From Planctomycetota bacterium (GTDB lineage Bacteria > Planctomycetota > UBA8108 > UBA1146), in NCBI GenBank assembly GCA_036338595.1, contig JAYZBV010000033.1, positions 1 through 56,893 of the forward strand: a DNA stretch of 56,893 nt, given 5' to 3'. A program made the position numbers. This document shows, in pieces, positions 39,001 to 48,000 of this stretch; positions within the stretch are counted from its first letter, which is position 1, and each line of letters opens with the position of its first letter.

Positions 39001-42000
39001 CCCCCTCATACCAGCTGGCGGTGGTCGTCGATGATGCAGATTCCGGGGTGACGGAGGTGCTGCGTGCCGACGACCTGTTGCCTTCCACGCCGCGTCAATT
39101 GCTGCTGTACCGGCATCTGGGAGCGGTCGCTCCCGATTTCGTGCATGTCCCTCTGGTTGTCGGGCCGGATCAGCGGCGACTTGCGAAACGCCATGGGGAC
39201 ACCAGCCTCGCTCGCTATCGACGCCAGGGAGTGGCGCCGGAGGCGATCATCGGGGCCCTCGCCAGTAGCCTCGGTTGGGTTACCGACGGCACACCCTGTC
39301 GACCGCAAGATCTTGTGGGTCGATTCGATCTCTCCACCATTCCGAGAGAGCCTATGACCTGGGACGATGATGGGTGCCTACAACTCGAGGATTGAAGTTT
39401 TTGTGCAGATCCGGCATAGTTCGTGTGTCCCGGTCTGCCGCTCCGGGATCCGGGTCCGGAGTCATCATTGATCAGTGTCGTGAGCTGTAGTCAGCGGTCG
39501 GCTACCCTTGCCGCCTCGGGGTTGGATCCCCGGTGCCCGCCAGCGGCATCCTTCGGTTCCTCATCTTCTCCCCTCTGGATACTCGTTTATCTGCTCGGTT
39601 GCTGTTGTGGCTTCATCTCTGAAACAGCCCTGGCCAGCGATCTTGAGCTCACTCTTCCCGATGGAAAGTGGTCGATCACCCGACCACTGCAGCAAACCGA
39701 TGTGCTGGCGATCTCCTTGCCTGCCTCGCAAGGCTGGAGACGAATGGAGTTGGCGCTCGTCAGTGGCTCGGTGAAGATTCCATTGACGGCTGTCGAAGTG
39801 GACGCAGGGGAAGCCCGAATACTGCTCTCGGATGCGGAACTGTTCGGCCCCGATCCCACTCGATTGCTGGAAGGGGACCTGCTGGTCTCGGTGATGGAAC
39901 AGGGGCAGGAGACGCTTCGCTCGAGCATCGCCTCGGTGATCGATCTGGCTCCATGGTATCCAGCGGGGGGCACTCCAGAAGATGTCCTCGAGCGTGCTGC
40001 GATAAAGTTGCGAGAGGGCCTGACCACGGATGCTGCAACTGAACTCGAGTTGCTTCGTGGTCAGAAGATGGAGCCAGCATTGTCATCGGAATGGATGCGA
40101 TTGACGGCCTCGGTTCAGCACGCGTATTCCAATGTCAGTTCAATTCACGCACGCACAGCAGAACAGTTTCTGGAAGAGGCGGCCAGTCGCGCACCCGATC
40201 AGTCCTCTGCGCGGGAACGTGTACTCATCGATCAAGCAACTCAGAGTATTCGCAATGCCAGCTACTCTGCAGATCGCGAGGAGTGGCGAACAGAACTGAC
40301 CACCGCACTGGCCCGTGCAAGATCTGCCCTCGCTCAGGCGAAGGCCAGAGGAGATCGAAGCAATGCTGCAGCGGCACTGGTCGAGATTGCATCGGCAGCG
40401 TCGTACCGGGGCTGGGTTCAGGAGACCCGAACGGCAACAGCGGCTGCGCTCGATCTGGTAGGAGACCCTGATACGTCCTGGAAGTGTGCCGTGGCCCGGG
40501 CTCGGGTCCTGATGATCTCGGGAAAATTGGATCTGGCGAGGATCGAGGCCAGCGAGGCGCTGGCCACCGTGGAACGAATACGCCAACATCGTGAAGATGA
40601 CGCGGCAGCGTTGTCGCCCAGACGAGATCCTGCATTGTTGCTGGCAGATATCGAGTCTCGGCGAGGAGATGCGCTCGCATCGTTGCTGGCTGCGGAGCAC
40701 ATCCGCGTGCGGGGCTCGGGGGAAACTGCTCCCGAGAGGGCCGACCTCGAGGAGGTGGCTCGAAAGGCCCAGGGACTGGCGATGGTGATCGTCACTCTCG
40801 ATGCCGGGGACGTGCTGCTGGTCTGGACCTCTCGTAACGGTGCATGGGAACTGCGTCGAGTGGATCAGAACCCGGGTGAGGCGACGAGGCGAGGCCTCGA
40901 CCTTCATCGCTCTCGCGGCAGTGATCCAACGGCCGTGAAATGGCTTTCCCGGAAGATCTTTGGCACTGAATTCCCTTCCTGTGATCGGCTTCTGCTGGCT
41001 CCCATCGGAGGCATGAGACGAATCCCATGGGGGATTCTGAACATCGATGGATCGACACTCGTCGATCGCTGCAGCTGGAGTCTTTTACCGAGTGTGAGTG
41101 CGGCCAGGCGCGCGCTGGGTCCGCTTCCGCGTGAAGGGTGGTGGACGCTGGTGGATCCGGTGGTTCCACAGCAGCCTGCGTTGAAAGGATCCAGGGTGGA
41201 GGGCCAGCGTGTCGTGGATCGCCTTCCGCAGGCGGTGCTCAAGGTAGGAGCGGAGGTGACCCCAACTGCGGTCATCGATGCCACGCACGAAGCAAAGGTA
41301 CTTCACATCGCATGCCATGGTGAGTTTCACCCCTACCAGCCGACTTCATCTCAATTGTTGCTGACTCCGGAGGATGGTTCTGACGGCACCTTCACCGCGG
41401 CAGAACTGGCGCGGCAAGATCTTTCGAACTGCCGGATGCTGGCACTGACCGGCTGCGAGACCGCCATCGGCTCGGCTGCCGGCGCCGATGATCTGGCGGG
41501 ATTCCCGCGCGCCGCATTCGAGGCGGGGTGTCCGGCGATCCTGGGCACACTCTGGCCCGTAGAAGATTCCTCAGCAGGCAGACTGGTGGCATCGCTGGTA
41601 GAGGCCACAGATGGCCTCAAAGGGCCTGCAGAAGTACTCAGGGAAGCATGTAGCGATCGCAGAGCGGATCCCAGGGATCGGGATCCATCTGCCTGGAGTG
41701 GTTGGGTTCTGGTTGAGAATGGCTGGTGAAGTGCCGATAATCCTGGATTGTGCGTCCGCTCCTCCTTCGCACACCGATGCCTCGGTATCGGGCAGGCGGG
41801 AGCCAGATGAAAGTTACGGATCGAGGGAGAAATTCCGTGCCGGGTTCCTGATTTGGGAACCGGGCACCGGCTTTGAACGCTTACTCCCGGGAGTTTTCCC
41901 GGGACGAGGATTGCCCGGGAGCGGCAAATGAGAGGTATTGCTATCGATCACCGAGCCAGGAACCTCTGGTTTCAGATTCTATTCTTGATCGTGCTGGTGC

Positions 42001-45000: not shown

Positions 45001-48000
45001 CTGTGGTCTCGTCCAGGATGCCCGGTCATCATCTCTACCGTTCCTCGGAGTGGTCCTGGATGATGCCGATGAAGAGGTGAGAAAAGCTGCATGGGGTGGA
45101 TTGTCGCGTCGAACTCGTCCTCCCGGTCATCTGCTGTTCGATGCATCCGCAGAGCCTTCCGTGAGAGTGCGTCAGGCAGCCCAGGTACGAGCGTGGCTCG
45201 AGGGCGGCGCGGTTCCTCTCTGATCCTCTCCTGATCGTCGCTGCTCGAAGCCACGAAAGAAAACGGGCCTGCAGGGTAACCCTGCAGGCCCGCGTTCCAT
45301 CTCATCTCGATCCGCAGCCATCTGCCGCCTGGATCATGCTTCCTGGCTCTGCTCCTCGATGAACTCCTGCCAGAAGTCTTCCGGCATATCGAGCGCAATC
45401 TTGAGCGCACCATTGGAACCGGCGTACTGAGGCTCCTCGACCGTTCTCACCTTGCCTCCGCCGTACTCGACGAGGGCCTCCTCGAAGGCTCGAGAGAGTC
45501 CCGTGATCTGGCTACCTCCGCCGCCGAGCAGGATATGATTGCGCATCTTCTGCTGAAACTCCGGGTCAAAGGTGGCGATCAGATCCTGCAACGCTTCGAC
45601 GGTGGGAGTGACGATGGCGGCGCAAGCTTCGCTCACCTCTGCGGTGATGTCGAACTCGGTGGGCTTGCCCTGCACGGGAAATGTGACCTCGACCGGATCC
45701 ATGTGTGATCCAACACAGGCGTGGAACTCCTTGATCTCTCGCACCATGTTGGTGGAGAAATCTGCCTCCGGATGGTTCTTGGTCAGCAACTCGACGAGTT
45801 TGTTGTCGATGGCATCTCCGGCGAAGTGGTGTGTTCTTTGATCCTCGGGCTTGGGCATCGTGCCGTGAACACGACATAGATCGACCGTGCCTGCACCGAT
45901 ATCCACGACCAGCGTGTCGGCGAGGAAGTCGAGTCCATAGGCAACGGCAAATGGCTCTGAACAGACGACGATGCTGTCCATGAACTCCGAGGCGGCACCG
46001 AGAATGTGAGCCTTGGAGTCGACACTGGCCTCTGCTGGTGCGCCGATCACGCCGTAGATGGTGCTTCCAGTGGGGATCTCTGCCTGTTCGATGACATACT
46101 CGAGCAGGTCATGCACAGCTTGTTTAGATTTCTCATCGTCGCAGATGACTCCCTTGTCGAGCGGACGCACCAGATCCACTGCCATGCGATTTTGCACCGC
46201 TTCTTCCCCGAAAACCTTTTCTCGTCCGCCGAGAAGTTTACGGCTGACATGGTCCTGGGCGTAACCGACATAGGACCAGACGGTGGTCCGGACACCTGTC
46301 GAGGTGGTGATGGAGGTACGACTGGTGCCGAGATCCATCCCGATGAAAACGACTTCGCTCATTCTGCTTCCTCTCCCTCAAGTGAACCTGCCGTTCAGGC
46401 GAGGTCCCTTTCGGTGATCTGTGAGTTCTTCTTTCTGGAGGAGATCTCTCTCCTGAGTGCCTGGTTATCTTGCATCAGTTCCAGCAGTAGCGCACGGCGG
46501 CGGCCGTGGTGAGGATCGTCTCCGTCACTGGCCTCGATGATCTTGCCGTCCGACGCGCGGGAAAATCCAGCGGAATCGCGCGATTCTGCTCTCCGGACGC
46601 TTTCCCGGGCATGATCTCGCTCTTGCCGGGCTTCGTCCAGGCTTCTGGCGAGGCGGCCAACCTTCCGTTCGAGCAACTGGATATTTTCAGTCCGGGCCTG
46701 TTCTTCCTGGATCCGGATGCGTTCTCGCTCCGAATCAAGAGAACGCTCCATCGCCTCTCTCAGTTCCGCCTCCAGTGCGGGCGCGACCTTCCCCGAGTCA
46801 ACAGCCGCATCGATCATCGACCCGAGAGAAGCCTCCAGGTCGATCATCGCAGTTTCCGAGAGGGTGAACTGCTCTCGCTCCACCTCACGATTTTTTTCTC
46901 GACCCAGTAACTCCTGGGCGCGGTCCAGTCTTCCAGAGAGGCCTTGCACGAGCGATTGAAGATCCGCCTTCTCGTTCTCGAACTCGCTCAGTTTTTCGCG
47001 AAAGCGCTGTTCAGACTGCTCGATGAGCAACTGGGTTTCCTTCTCGTCGAGGGAGCGATCGCTCTCGCGCAGCGCATCCTCGACGGCGTCCTGGATCAGA
47101 TCCTTGATCGCAGAAAGATTGAGGACCCGGACGCTGTCTCGCTGAGCAGCGATGGCCGAGGTGCGGACCAGCCTCGACCGCGACCGAAGTGCAGATTCGA
47201 GATCGGGATGACTATCGAGAGAAGTGCTGCCGGAGAAGAGTCGTTCCAGCGCATCCAGTTCTCGAGGATGTGCTGGCTTCCACCGCATCAGAATGCCGGC
47301 GGATGTTCGCTGGAACACCTCGGCGTGGATCAACTCGGCGTGTCCATCGGGTCGCTCGACGATCAACTCGAAGCGGTCACCCTCGCGTAGTCGAATCGAT
47401 GGCTCCAGCAACACCTCTCGCTCATCGATGCGAGCGACGGGCAATCTCAGGATTCCCGCTTCCAGTTCTGCCACGACGCTCCAGCGTCCGGGACCGTTGG
47501 ACAGGCTCTGGGGGTTTGGGTCCGGCAATTCGGTTTCCGATCTGGTCCGGCGGGATCTGGGCAACTGGATCATCGAGCCACGATAGGGTCCTGCCACAAC
47601 GCGAAGGCAGCGAAGAAGCACGGCAAAAAAGAATCGTGGCAGCAAAGAAGGCTATCGGGATCTACCGATTTCCGCAAGGAGACGCGTGATCGTGCCCGAT
47701 TCCGGCACCCGCAGCCGGGCGCTGGTTCCGGGATTTGTTGCCGGAACCTGGATCGAGCCCAGATCGTTACTTCAGGTGCCAGGAACTCCCGGTGCCCGAC
47801 CTGGATCGATGGTCCTCGGTTCAGCGTTTCATCGAGACCGATGGATCGGGTCCGTTGGACTTGGGGACCCCGACATGGGATGATCCTGCTGTTGGAGTTT
47901 CTCATGGCTTCCAGTTGTGTTCTCGTCGTGCTGCTGGCCTCGATTCATGGCCTTGCCGTGGATGTGATTCCCGGTAGCGAGCCCTCCCGACAGGGGGCCA

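What a model noticed while it worked through the whole genome (the two positions that open the first line are those of the whole stretch)
41712..45223. FliA (sigma-28) regulon rewired in a flagellum-less planctomycete: conserved sigma-28 promoters drive two secretin genes [...]
A sigma-28-type promoter (T(C/G)AGA/TCAAG-N15-GCCGAT) is conserved at a fixed distance before two outer-membrane secretin genes (g00536 here; pilQ g01895 at C99:8957), flgN (C34), a TPR protein (C37:71611) and a small basic protein upstream of IHF (C75:15961). With no flagellin to transcribe, FliA appears to control type IV filament/secretin genes.
Evidence so far: Motif found in this genome by upstream scanning. With a matrix trained only on this genome, 23 of 27 family orthologues of g00536 score >=14, most at 210-235 nt upstream, reversed controls <=9.8; pilQ and g00688 orthologues show it at about 100 and 95 nt. 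g01511 orthologues: 20 of 24 score >12 at 76-116 nt, 0 of 24 controls. Exact pattern: 29 matches in 20 of 59 genomes versus 0 for the reversed pattern. FliA/WhiG identity of g01379 from homologue names; no flagellin in 24 of 24 genomes of these genera.
(Added by a program. Inside this text positions count along the whole contig: contig position 1 is position 1 of the stretch shown here. "Call 12" and the like, gene names such as g00115 and contig names such as C1 are that model's own, and its searches are not shown. The text may have been shortened before it was handed on; [...] marks where a part breaks off. The agent that wrote the report below was given it as the finding of a first reader that could run no searches.)

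Follow-up and report, generated by a model that had tools for sequence, protein, structure and literature searches.

The report
Flagellar export gate kept without flagellum
These uncultured planctomycetes have lost the genes for the flagellum's filament, hook and rod but kept its protein-export gate, its sigma factor and that factor's inhibitor, which suggests the gate now works as a gene-control switch; the secretin promoter that was flagged is real but could be read by either the flagellar or the housekeeping sigma factor.

Summary
The site at 41712-41741 is real and conserved, but ambiguous. It reads as a sigma-28 promoter (GTTGAG-N15-GCCGATAA) and equally well as a sigma-70 promoter (TTGAGA-N17-GATAAT).

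A sigma-28 regulon does exist. A matrix trained outside these genera ranks pilQ 2nd of 1427 upstream regions. "Rewired to type IV filaments" is mostly wrong: the pilQ site is already in 5 of 7 flagellated kin, and the major pilins and three other secretins lack it.

The larger finding is what was kept. Of 45 class genomes with no flagellin or rod/hook hit, 44 keep FliP, 42 keep FliA and 42 keep FlgM or a syntenic derivative. This happened in three independent losses. Here fliA ends an intact fliF-H-I-J-O-P-Q-R-flhB-flhA-flhF-flhG operon, FlgN survives alone, and FlhB ends before its NPTH switch domain. In Salmonella a comparable genotype exports FlgM into the periplasm without FliK.

Best reading (about 0.5, inferred, untested): a filament-free export gate kept to remove FlgM and switch on sigma-28.

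The parts
39744..41729 (+). CHAT-domain (caspase-like) gene; its last codons V-E-N carry the -35 element. The start could be as early as 39423.
   Evidence: Pfam PF12770 E 6e-42; gene call; adjacent to the secretin in 30 of 30 loci and 18 of 20 more distant loci
41712..41718 (+). -35 region: GTTGAG in the sigma-28 register (41712-41717), TTGAGA in the sigma-70 register (41713-41718)
   Evidence: Third base of the Val codon kept in 23 of 24 genomes, against 8-18 at 18 other four-fold sites; the Val two codons upstream is also 23 of 24.
41733..41741 (+). -10 region: GCCGATAA (sigma-28) overlapping GATAAT (sigma-70, 41736-41741); non-coding here
   Evidence: Each letter kept in 23-24 of 24 flagellin-less family genomes; sigma-28 score 12.1, sigma-70 score 11.9
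41742..41927 (+). Inferred 5' leader of about 180 nt, GC-rich and poorly conserved; no transcript start shown
   Evidence: RNA contigs uninformative
41928..44414 (+). Secretin, 828 aa, with one short N domain and a conserved 314-aa helical C-terminal tail; present class-wide, including flagellated kin
   Evidence: PF00263 and PF03958; 52 of 59 class genomes; tail model pLDDT 77
44414..45223 (+). HEAT-repeat protein with a lipoprotein-type N-terminus, overlapping the secretin stop; pilotin-like role is inference
   Evidence: PF13646; N-terminus read; adjacent in 15 of 20 distant loci

Best explanation
FliA in these planctomycetes is still an active sigma-28, and the cell keeps the circuit that switches it on although it builds no flagellum.

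Shown from sequence: G000 has an intact operon fliF-fliH-fliI-fliJ-fliO-fliP-fliQ-fliR-flhB-flhA-flhF-flhG-fliA (C72:16700-30273), a lone flgN (C34:25765-26289) and a diverged, syntenic flgM with its own sigma-28 site (C55:14413-14736). It has no detectable rod, hook, ruler, L/P rings, FliG/FliN, MotB, junction, cap or flagellin. FlhB stops before the NPTH cleavage site.

Inferred: the gate is set to late-substrate mode. FlgM is the only known flagellar export substrate left, so the gate exports FlgM into the periplasm and frees FliA. FlgN would be kept as an FlhA activator, and FlhF/FlhG would set where or when the gate forms.

FliA then transcribes a largely ancestral, non-flagellar regulon: pilQ, prkA, a PilZ protein, small regulators, flgM and flgN. 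The secretin-HEAT operon in this window has an overlapping promoter, an older sigma-70-type site on which a sigma-28 reading improved in the flagellin-less clade. It is probably read by both.
For: - Retention among the 45 genomes lacking flagellin and rod/hook hits: FliP 44, FliA 42. FlgM by Pfam in 20 of 22 outside g1/g6/g7 and as a syntenic ORF in 22 of 23 within them (hhalign probability 94.6%). FliD in 0.
- FlhA is in 28 of 28 and FlgN in 27 of 28 family genomes. In the neighbourhoods read, flgN was the only recognised flagellar gene left in g3/f5/f6, and flgN-fliW-csrA in g26.
- A secretin tree needs three filament losses, forced by branches with SH-aLRT >=95.
- FlhB is 255-286 aa and lacks the C-terminal domain in 12 of 12 sequences read from g1/g6/g7/f5/f6, two separate lineages.
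- The FlhA positions matching Salmonella R85, R94, K203 and D208 are kept (D208 essential per PMC3139655 abstract).
- Salmonella lacking rod-hook, other late substrates, Fluke and FlhB-CCD secretes FlgM-Bla to the periplasm without FliK (PMC13344023, section 6 read).
- FlgN binding activates FlhA (PMC7955116 abstract).
- The flgM promoters of g1/g6/g7, not in training, score >=11 in 20 of 22; reversed controls 3 of 22.
Against: - No export, transcript start or sigma activity was measured.
- FlgM in g1/g6/g7, including this genome, is so diverged that Pfam misses it in 23 of 23. Its middle helix is eroded, so it may no longer inhibit FliA.
- G008, G056 and G057 lack the filament but keep full-length FlhB of 364-370 aa. 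In Salmonella that domain blocks late export without FliK. No FliK match was seen in their operons.
- The Salmonella result needed overexpressed basal bodies, and that strain kept fliE and the C-ring. FliG and FliN are not found in G000.
- Three g24 operons lack fliH/I/J (the rest of those genomes not searched).
- FlgN is detected in only 3 of 14 f6 genomes.
- An unknown non-flagellar substrate would explain the gate equally well.
- All genomes are incomplete (G000 88% complete, 7% contamination).
Confidence: 0.5

Rival explanations
1. The retained gate is a repurposed secretion or membrane platform for unknown non-flagellar substrates: CORE/nanotube-like, Lysobacter-like, or a proto-injectisome that might use the window's secretin as outer-membrane exit. 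FliA and FlgM are kept for separate reasons.
For: All six CORE genes, FliF and the ATPase complex are present. There is precedent for non-flagellar uses (PMC6456723 and PMC7688988 passages; PMC7277350 abstract and introduction). The orphan secretin is class-wide and gains a sigma-28 reading in the flagellin-less clade.
Against: The secretin is unlinked to the export operon and equally present in flagellated kin. It carries a sigma-28 score >=11 in only 1 of 18 genomes outside the order. No extra gene was seen inserted in the G000 operon. This reading does not explain why FlgM and FlgN survive in all three losses.
Confidence: 0.27
2. One reading: after flagellin loss FliA was rewired to drive type IV filament and secretin genes.
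For: pilQ ranks 2nd of 1427. The window site scores as sigma-28 in 21 of 24 flagellin-less and 0 of 6 flagellated genomes. The flgN, C37:9501 and C41:28551 sites score low in flagellated G007. A TPR lipoprotein and a PilX_N gene also score 16.5 and 12.6.
Against: The pilQ site is in 5 of 7 flagellated kin. Major pilins and three other secretins lack it. Other flagellin-less lineages mostly lack it at pilQ, 1 of 14. Many top targets are regulators or PrkA.
Confidence: 0.13
3. For the window site alone: it is only a housekeeping sigma-70 promoter (TTGAGA-17-GATAAT), and the sigma-28 look is coincidence. This is compatible with the best explanation's circuit; the confidence refers to this site.
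For: It scores 11.9, the 90th percentile, under a sigma-70 model fitted on 434 divergent gene heads. The same register scores 11.0, 9.5 and 7.7 in flagellated G011, G007 and G010. The final T, needed by sigma-70 and variable at other sigma-28 sites, is kept in 24 of 24.
Against: The G-C-C-G letters, which the sigma-70 model barely constrains, are kept in 23-24 of 24 in non-coding DNA. The synonymous G of the Glu codon, favoured by the sigma-28 matrix, is kept in 23 of 24. The sigma-70 model was seeded with a recalled consensus, and a refit on reversed DNA also found 228 sites of similar mean score.
Confidence: 0.35
4. The export operon, flgM and flgN are decaying remnants of recent flagellum loss with no function.
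For: FliF, FlhB, FlgM, FlgN and one helix of FliA region 4 have diverged fast in g1/g6/g7. Loss of FliG, FliN and the ATPase differs between lineages.
Against: No internal stops in 56 FliP or 30 FlhA matches. FlhA is 52-69% identical between G000 and the other species of the three genera, apart from one at 90%. The same gene set was kept in three deep, independent lineages, and sigma-28 sites are conserved before flgM.
Confidence: 0.06

Closest known systems
FliA (sigma-28)-FlgM checkpoint of the Salmonella flagellum, especially the rod-hook-minus, flk-minus, FlhB-delta-CCD strain of Chevance et al. 2026 (PMC13344023; abstract, passages and section 6 read)
   Same: Export gate, FliF, FliA and FlgM present; rod, hook, ruler and other late substrates absent; FlhB ends near the cleavage site; flgM has a sigma-28 promoter.
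   Different: Natural and convergent rather than engineered. No FliG or FliN found in G000. FlgM strongly diverged in g1/g6/g7. Full-length FlhB in g3 and g26. Export not shown.
Lysobacter enzymogenes OH11 retained flagellar T3SS (PMC7277350 abstract, introduction and part of methods; PMC7688988 passages)
   Same: Non-flagellated cell keeps the export apparatus, with a reported link to type IV pili.
   Different: OH11 keeps hook, rod, L/P-ring and hook-cap genes. FliA, FlgM and FlhF are not mentioned in PMC7688988 (0 occurrences). It is a single lineage.
CORE complex for nanotubes (FliO, P, Q, R, FlhB, FlhA; PMC6456723 passages), also noted in Myxococci, Chloracidobacterium and Succinatimonas lacking most flagellar genes
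   Same: The same six genes are retained without a filament.
   Different: Here FliF, FlhF, FlhG, FliA, FlgM and FlgN are co-retained and FlhB is truncated. No nanotube evidence.
Streptomyces WhiG, a sigma-28 family factor used without flagella (PMC13595943, start of abstract in search listing only)
   Same: Sigma-28 family factor with non-flagellar targets; WhiG-type chains are the best PDB sequence matches (identification of those entries as WhiG is recalled).
   Different: WhiG is held by RsiG and c-di-GMP. Here the partner is FlgM-derived and fliA stays in the export operon.
Secretin superfamily (PilQ/GspD, PF00263)
   Same: Secretin core and one short N domain; best PDB matches are PilQ and GspD.
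   Different: No linked pilMNOP or gsp operon; flanked by CHAT and HEAT genes; 314-aa C-terminal tail.

Membership tests
FliA/WhiG sigma-28 | Family HMM over curated cut-off | tested here: met
   TIGR02479 221 vs 189.6 bits; NF005413 202 vs 201
FliA/WhiG sigma-28 | Position after flhF-flhG in the flagellar operon, as in flagellated kin | tested here: met
FliA/WhiG sigma-28 | -10-reading residues of regions 2.4/3.0 (E. coli R74, D81, R84, R91; roles recalled, source paper not held) | tested here: met
   Aligned positions identical to E. coli FliA 6pmi_F
FlgM anti-sigma-28 | Homology and synteny with class FlgM | tested here: met
   Best six-frame hit of a class FlgM profile (E 0.28, weak) lies at the syntenic position; hhalign 94.6%; Pfam PF04316 not matched
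FlgM anti-sigma-28 | Binds and inhibits FliA; is exported by the gate | not tested
Sigma-28 promoter (window site) | -35, N15 spacer and -10 match the lineage's flgM/flagellin promoters | tested here: met
   Score 12.1, rank 20 of 1427; conserved in 21 of 24
Sigma-28 promoter (window site) | Not equally explained by the housekeeping sigma | tested here: not met
   Sigma-70 score 11.9; the other 31 top sites score <=2.6
Sigma-28 promoter (window site) | FliA-dependent transcript start about 7 nt after the -10 | not testable with these tools
   Only RNA contigs available
Bacterial flagellum | Flagellin, hook-filament junction, cap | tested here: not met
   PF00669 and PF07195 in 0 of 24 genomes of g1/g3/g6/g7
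Bacterial flagellum | Rod and hook | tested here: not met
   PF00460 in 0 of 24; G007 rod/hook proteins do not hit G000
Bacterial flagellum | Export gate, MS ring, ATPase | tested here: met
   Pfam matches for FliF, H, I, J, O, P, Q, R, FlhB, FlhA
Non-flagellar T3SS (injectisome) | Secretin encoded with the export operon | tested here: not met
   Secretins are on C33, C99, C100 and C111, the operon on C72
Non-flagellar T3SS (injectisome) | Needle, inner rod, translocon, effectors | not tested
   No dedicated search was run
CORE nanotube platform | FliO, P, Q, R, FlhB, FlhA present | tested here: met
   FlhB is truncated
CORE nanotube platform | Membrane nanotubes form at the complex | not testable with these tools
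   Needs imaging
Type IV pilus secretin PilQ (window gene) | Secretin domain | tested here: met
   PF00263 E 6e-35
Type IV pilus secretin PilQ (window gene) | In a pilMNOPQ operon with STN/N0 domains | tested here: not met
   That description fits the C99 gene; the window gene sits between CHAT and HEAT genes
Known fold for the secretin tail | Structural match covering the domain | tested here: inconclusive
   Best VIA Z 4.7, rmsd 3.5, 76 aligned; no Foldseek E <= 0.001

The most novel reading that the evidence does not exclude
Three lineages of one planctomycete class have independently pared the flagellum down to a stand-alone signalling device. It is a type III export gate with no appendage, whose only job is to pump the anti-sigma FlgM out of the cytoplasm at a place and time set by FlhF/FlhG. 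It thereby switches on a sigma-28 programme (PilQ, an orphan secretin, PrkA, c-di-GMP and sigma-54 regulators). Two lineages fixed the FlhB truncation that locks the Salmonella gate in late mode.
Probability: 0.4. Interest if true: 0.9.

Novelty: new variant of a known kind. Interest (0 to 1): 0.72.

Why it matters
Flagellar export gates without flagella are known but have been read as secretion or nanotube platforms. Here the genes co-retained through three independent losses are the gate, its placement factors and the FliA-FlgM-FlgN set, which points to gene control as the selected function.

The genotype resembles a laboratory Salmonella strain used in 2026 to argue that removing the FlhB C-terminal domain is the substrate switch. 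It is therefore a natural test of that model, and of the minimal parts a type III gate needs.

It also explains why a non-swimming bacterium would keep sigma-28. And it warns that single export-gene hits in such genomes do not indicate motility.

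Tried and rejected
- RNA evidence: one search found four RNA runs, all as contigs; only X1 held a small share (0.07) of the words. Laid on window 36000-52300, it gave pieces of a related strain, mostly 90-95% alike or less. It cannot show a start, strand or level.
- Secretin tail fold: modelled at pLDDT 77, but neither Foldseek nor VIA-align gave a convincing match. The ESM Atlas gave only leads under 0.9. This does not show a new fold.
- Free-standing FlhB C-terminal domain: none in G000 or in 5 of 5 other genomes. That search had no positive control genome.
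- Stop-codon readthrough as the reason GCCGATAAT is conserved: rejected, because several orthologues have two stops before it. In G008 and the flagellated kin these letters are in frame with the CHAT gene's end.
- Canonical TAAA-N15-GCCGAT: 0 matches in G000.
- Pfam alone for FlgM and FlgN in G000: both missed; they were found by synteny and by homology to kin.
- Literature: nine full-text searches. No listing described this retention pattern in Planctomycetota, judged from titles and abstract openings. The library lacks most subscription papers, and supplements were not read: Table S2 of PMC6456723 may list such genomes, and bioRxiv supplements are closed.
- Earlier scan notes: nothing on the export gate or FlgM.
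- Not tested: MotA, FliL, FliE, FliM, dN/dS, needle-type proteins.

Full report
THE SITE. The window is contig C33 of genome G000 (2.9 Mb, 88% complete, 7% contamination). One close relative's record title names it Planctomycetes bacterium UBA1146. At 41712-41741 the sequence reads GTTGAG AATGGCTGGTGAAGT GCCGATAAT. The -35 part lies in the last codons (V-E-N) of a CHAT-domain gene that stops at 41729, and the -10 part is non-coding. Downstream are a secretin of 828 aa (41928-44414) and a HEAT-repeat lipoprotein-like gene (44414-45223). The secretin is in 52 of 59 class genomes, flagellated or not. In the 24 flagellin-less family genomes each letter of GCCGATAAT is kept in 23-24 of 24; the next is kept in 20 and the following three in 9. 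Synonymous bases in the -35 codons are also unusually fixed. The Val third base is kept in 23 of 24, against 8-18 at 18 other four-fold sites, although the Val two codons upstream is equally fixed. So this is a real DNA element.

AN INDEPENDENT SIGMA-28 MATRIX. I trained on 31 upstream regions of flgM (22) and flagellin (9) from genomes outside genera g1/g6/g7, seeded with a recalled sigma-28 consensus. Of these, 26 gave a site, consensus CTCAAG-N15(16)-GCCGATAA. On 1427 upstream regions of G000, scores >=15 occurred 9 times, against 2 reversed and 1.3 shuffled; at >=12 the counts were 20, 12 and 10. pilQ ranks 2nd (19.0), flgM 13th (13.9), the window site 20th (12.1), flgN 22nd (11.9), the C75 gene 31st (10.9) and the TPR gene 94th (8.6). 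Other top targets include PrkA, a PilZ protein, a sigma-54 activator, a TPR lipoprotein and two paralogous small proteins. Footprints in 2-5 relatives each hold up for most of the seven such genes tested. FliA itself is over the TIGR02479 cut-off and keeps the residues aligned to E. coli R74, D81, R84 and R91 (their role is recalled). A sigma-28 regulon without flagellin is therefore well supported.

NOT SIMPLY REWIRED. The pilQ site scores >=11 in 22 of 22 flagellin-less family genomes with upstream DNA (4 of 22 reversed). It also does so in 5 of 7 flagellated kin; the misses are G007 at 10.2 and G003 with only 86 nt available. G001 and G006 carry it as well. The C75 and C41:15217 orthologues carry the site in flagellated G007 (20.8 and 17.0). 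In the other flagellin-less lineages pilQ has it in 1 of 14 genomes, and the window secretin's orthologues outside the order in 1 of 18, with 1 of 18 reversed. The three tandem pilins score -2.8 to 4.4 and the other three secretins -0.5 to 8.6. Gains after loss look plausible for flgN, whose operon was deleted, and for C37:9501, C41:28551 and the window site (21 of 24 flagellin-less versus 0 of 6 flagellated).

THE WINDOW SITE IS AMBIGUOUS. The same letters read TTGAGA-N17-GATAAT. A sigma-70 model fitted on 434 divergent gene heads of G000 gave TTG(A/C)C at -35, a 17-nt spacer, and A and T at the second and sixth -10 positions (208 sites). The window site, not in training, scores 11.9, the 90th percentile. 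It is the only one of the top 32 sigma-28 candidates to do so; the others score <=2.6. This register is kept in 22 of 24 flagellin-less genomes at >=11.9 and in flagellated G011, G007 and G010 at 11.0, 9.5 and 7.7. Two caveats apply: the model was seeded with a recalled consensus, and refitting on reversed DNA also produced 228 sites of similar mean score. The invariant final T favours sigma-70, while the invariant G-C-C-G and the synonymous G of the Glu codon favour sigma-28. An overlapping dual promoter fits best. RNA data could not decide.

WHY FliA IS STILL THERE. fliA ends an intact operon on C72: fliF, fliH, fliI, fliJ, fliO, fliP, fliQ, fliR, flhB, flhA, flhF, flhG, fliA. The same locus in flagellated G007 also holds rod, C-ring, hook and motor genes. 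In G000, searches with G007's FliN, MotB, FlgE, FlgD, FliK, FliG, FlgB, C, F, A, H, I, J, K, L, FliW, CsrA, both flagellins, FliD and FliS found nothing at E <= 0.05. FlgG and FlaG gave marginal hits (0.048 and 0.022), and FlgN hit C34 at 1e-11 (G007 labels come partly from position and recalled motifs). Class-wide, flagellin is in 13 of 59 genomes, rod/hook in 14 and FliD in 13, but FliP is in 56 and FliA in 55. Among the 45 with neither flagellin nor rod, FliP is in 44 and FliA in 42. FlgM is found by Pfam in 20 of the 22 outside g1/g6/g7 and in 0 of 23 inside. A class profile's best hit in G000 (E 0.28) falls at the flgM position, C55:14413-14736. A matching ORF is at that position in 22 of 23 genomes, G016 being cut by its contig end. 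Profile-profile probability is 94.6%, and a sigma-28 site >=11 precedes it in 20 of 22, with 3 of 22 reversed. FlgN is in 27 of 28 family genomes and by Pfam in 3 of 4 f5, 3 of 14 f6 and 3 of 3 g26 genomes. A quick maximum-likelihood tree (SH-aLRT only, 30 of 50 available secretin rows, one gene) needs three changes of filament state, forced by well-supported branches: f1's g3+g1+g6+g7, f5+f6, and g26. Reduced operons of the same order were read in 12 flagellin-less f5/f6/g26 loci (13 of 20 fetched loci were displayed, one of them flagellated).

FlhB AND THE MECHANISM. FlhB is 255-286 aa and ends before the NPTH motif in 12 of 12 sequences read from g1/g6/g7/f5/f6. It is 364-370 aa in G008, G056, G057 and flagellated kin. 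FlhA keeps the positions of Salmonella R85, R94, K203 and D208 (PMC3139655 abstract). Chevance et al. 2026 (PMC13344023; abstract, passages, section 6) report that Salmonella lacking rod-hook genes, other late substrates, Fluke and the FlhB C-terminal domain secretes FlgM-Bla into the periplasm without FliK, though only with overexpressed basal bodies. FlgN binding can activate FlhA (PMC7955116 abstract), and FlgM export is what frees FliA (PMC8527033 passages). The inference is that the gate is kept to export FlgM and so control sigma-28. Against it: FlgM here is heavily diverged, three filament-less genomes keep full FlhB, three g24 operons lack the ATPase genes, G000 shows no FliG or FliN, and nothing was measured. 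An unknown secreted substrate remains a fair rival.

COMPARISON WITH WHAT IS KNOWN. Lysobacter enzymogenes OH11 keeps a flagellar T3SS linked to twitching and toxin export, but also keeps hook and rod genes (PMC7277350, PMC7688988). CORE genes without flagella were noted in Myxococci and others (PMC6456723 passages). Cultured Saltatorellota, a sister group, encode full flagella (10.1101/817700 passages). Nine searches listed no description of a gate + FlhF/G + FliA + FlgM + FlgN remnant in Planctomycetota, judged from titles and abstract openings; subscription papers and supplements were not seen. Two earlier scan notes describe the CHAT-secretin-HEAT module, which my searches agree with.

VERDICT. 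Observation partly confirmed; interpretation partly supported. The promoter claim alone is modest. The convergent retention of a filament-free export gate with its sigma and anti-sigma is the surprising, testable result. I rate it a new variant of a known kind, interest 0.72.

Noticed in passing
window 45334-46362 (-): Actin-like gene (MreB_Mbl E 1e-18, Salactin E 6e-16) converging on the secretin operon. A MamK-like actin is described in the sister group Saltatorellota; identity with it was not tested.
   Followed up: no
window 43470-44411: The 314-aa secretin tail has many invariant residues across 42 class sequences and folds confidently (pLDDT 77) with no clear structural match.
   Followed up: partly
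L001:1354-2196 (G000 C72 fliA): FliA of g1/g6/g7 diverged in the first helix of region 4 while the recognition helix is invariant, in step with the diverged FlgM; possible co-evolution.
   Followed up: partly
L081, L082, L083 (genus g24 operons): The operon lacks fliH/fliI/fliJ and keeps only a partial fliG, a candidate natural ATPase-free gate; the rest of those genomes was not searched.
   Followed up: no
L223, L225, L228 (genus g26): The second flagellar cluster is reduced to flgN-fliW-csrA with a sigma-28-type site upstream, although flagellin, FliW's usual partner (recalled), is absent.
   Followed up: partly
L086:7730-8824, L087:7583-8677: Full-length FlhB of G056 and G057 was not flagged by the NPT[HR] pattern, so the autocleavage site may be altered; G008 not checked.
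   Followed up: no
G000 C73:48004-50040 (L207): prkA carries a strong sigma-28 site in all four flagellin-less relatives tested (15.7-18.9) and a weaker, differently placed one in flagellated G007.
   Followed up: partly
G000 C41:15217-15777 and C42:14175-14651 (L208, L205): Two paralogous small proteins with no Pfam match, both with sigma-28 sites; the site is conserved in 4 of 4 orthologues including G007.
   Followed up: partly
L019:2032-2703 (upstream of fliF): A 669-nt gap with a sigma-54-like motif 367 nt upstream of fliF (recalled pattern). The two-component genes that precede the operon in G007 and g26 are missing at this locus in G000.
   Followed up: no
L070, L071, L072 (upstream of the secretin in G009, G007, G010): Flagellated kin show an extended -10-like TGnTA(C/G)ACT downstream of the site studied, not evident in G000.
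   Followed up: no
G000 C100:68063-83449 (L025): A second pilM-like operon with two TPR-bearing secretins and ExbB/ExbD-like genes; no sigma-28 site.
   Followed up: no
L021 / G011, G009, G002, G038 pilQ: pilQ matches in four relatives contain one internal stop each; not examined.
   Followed up: no
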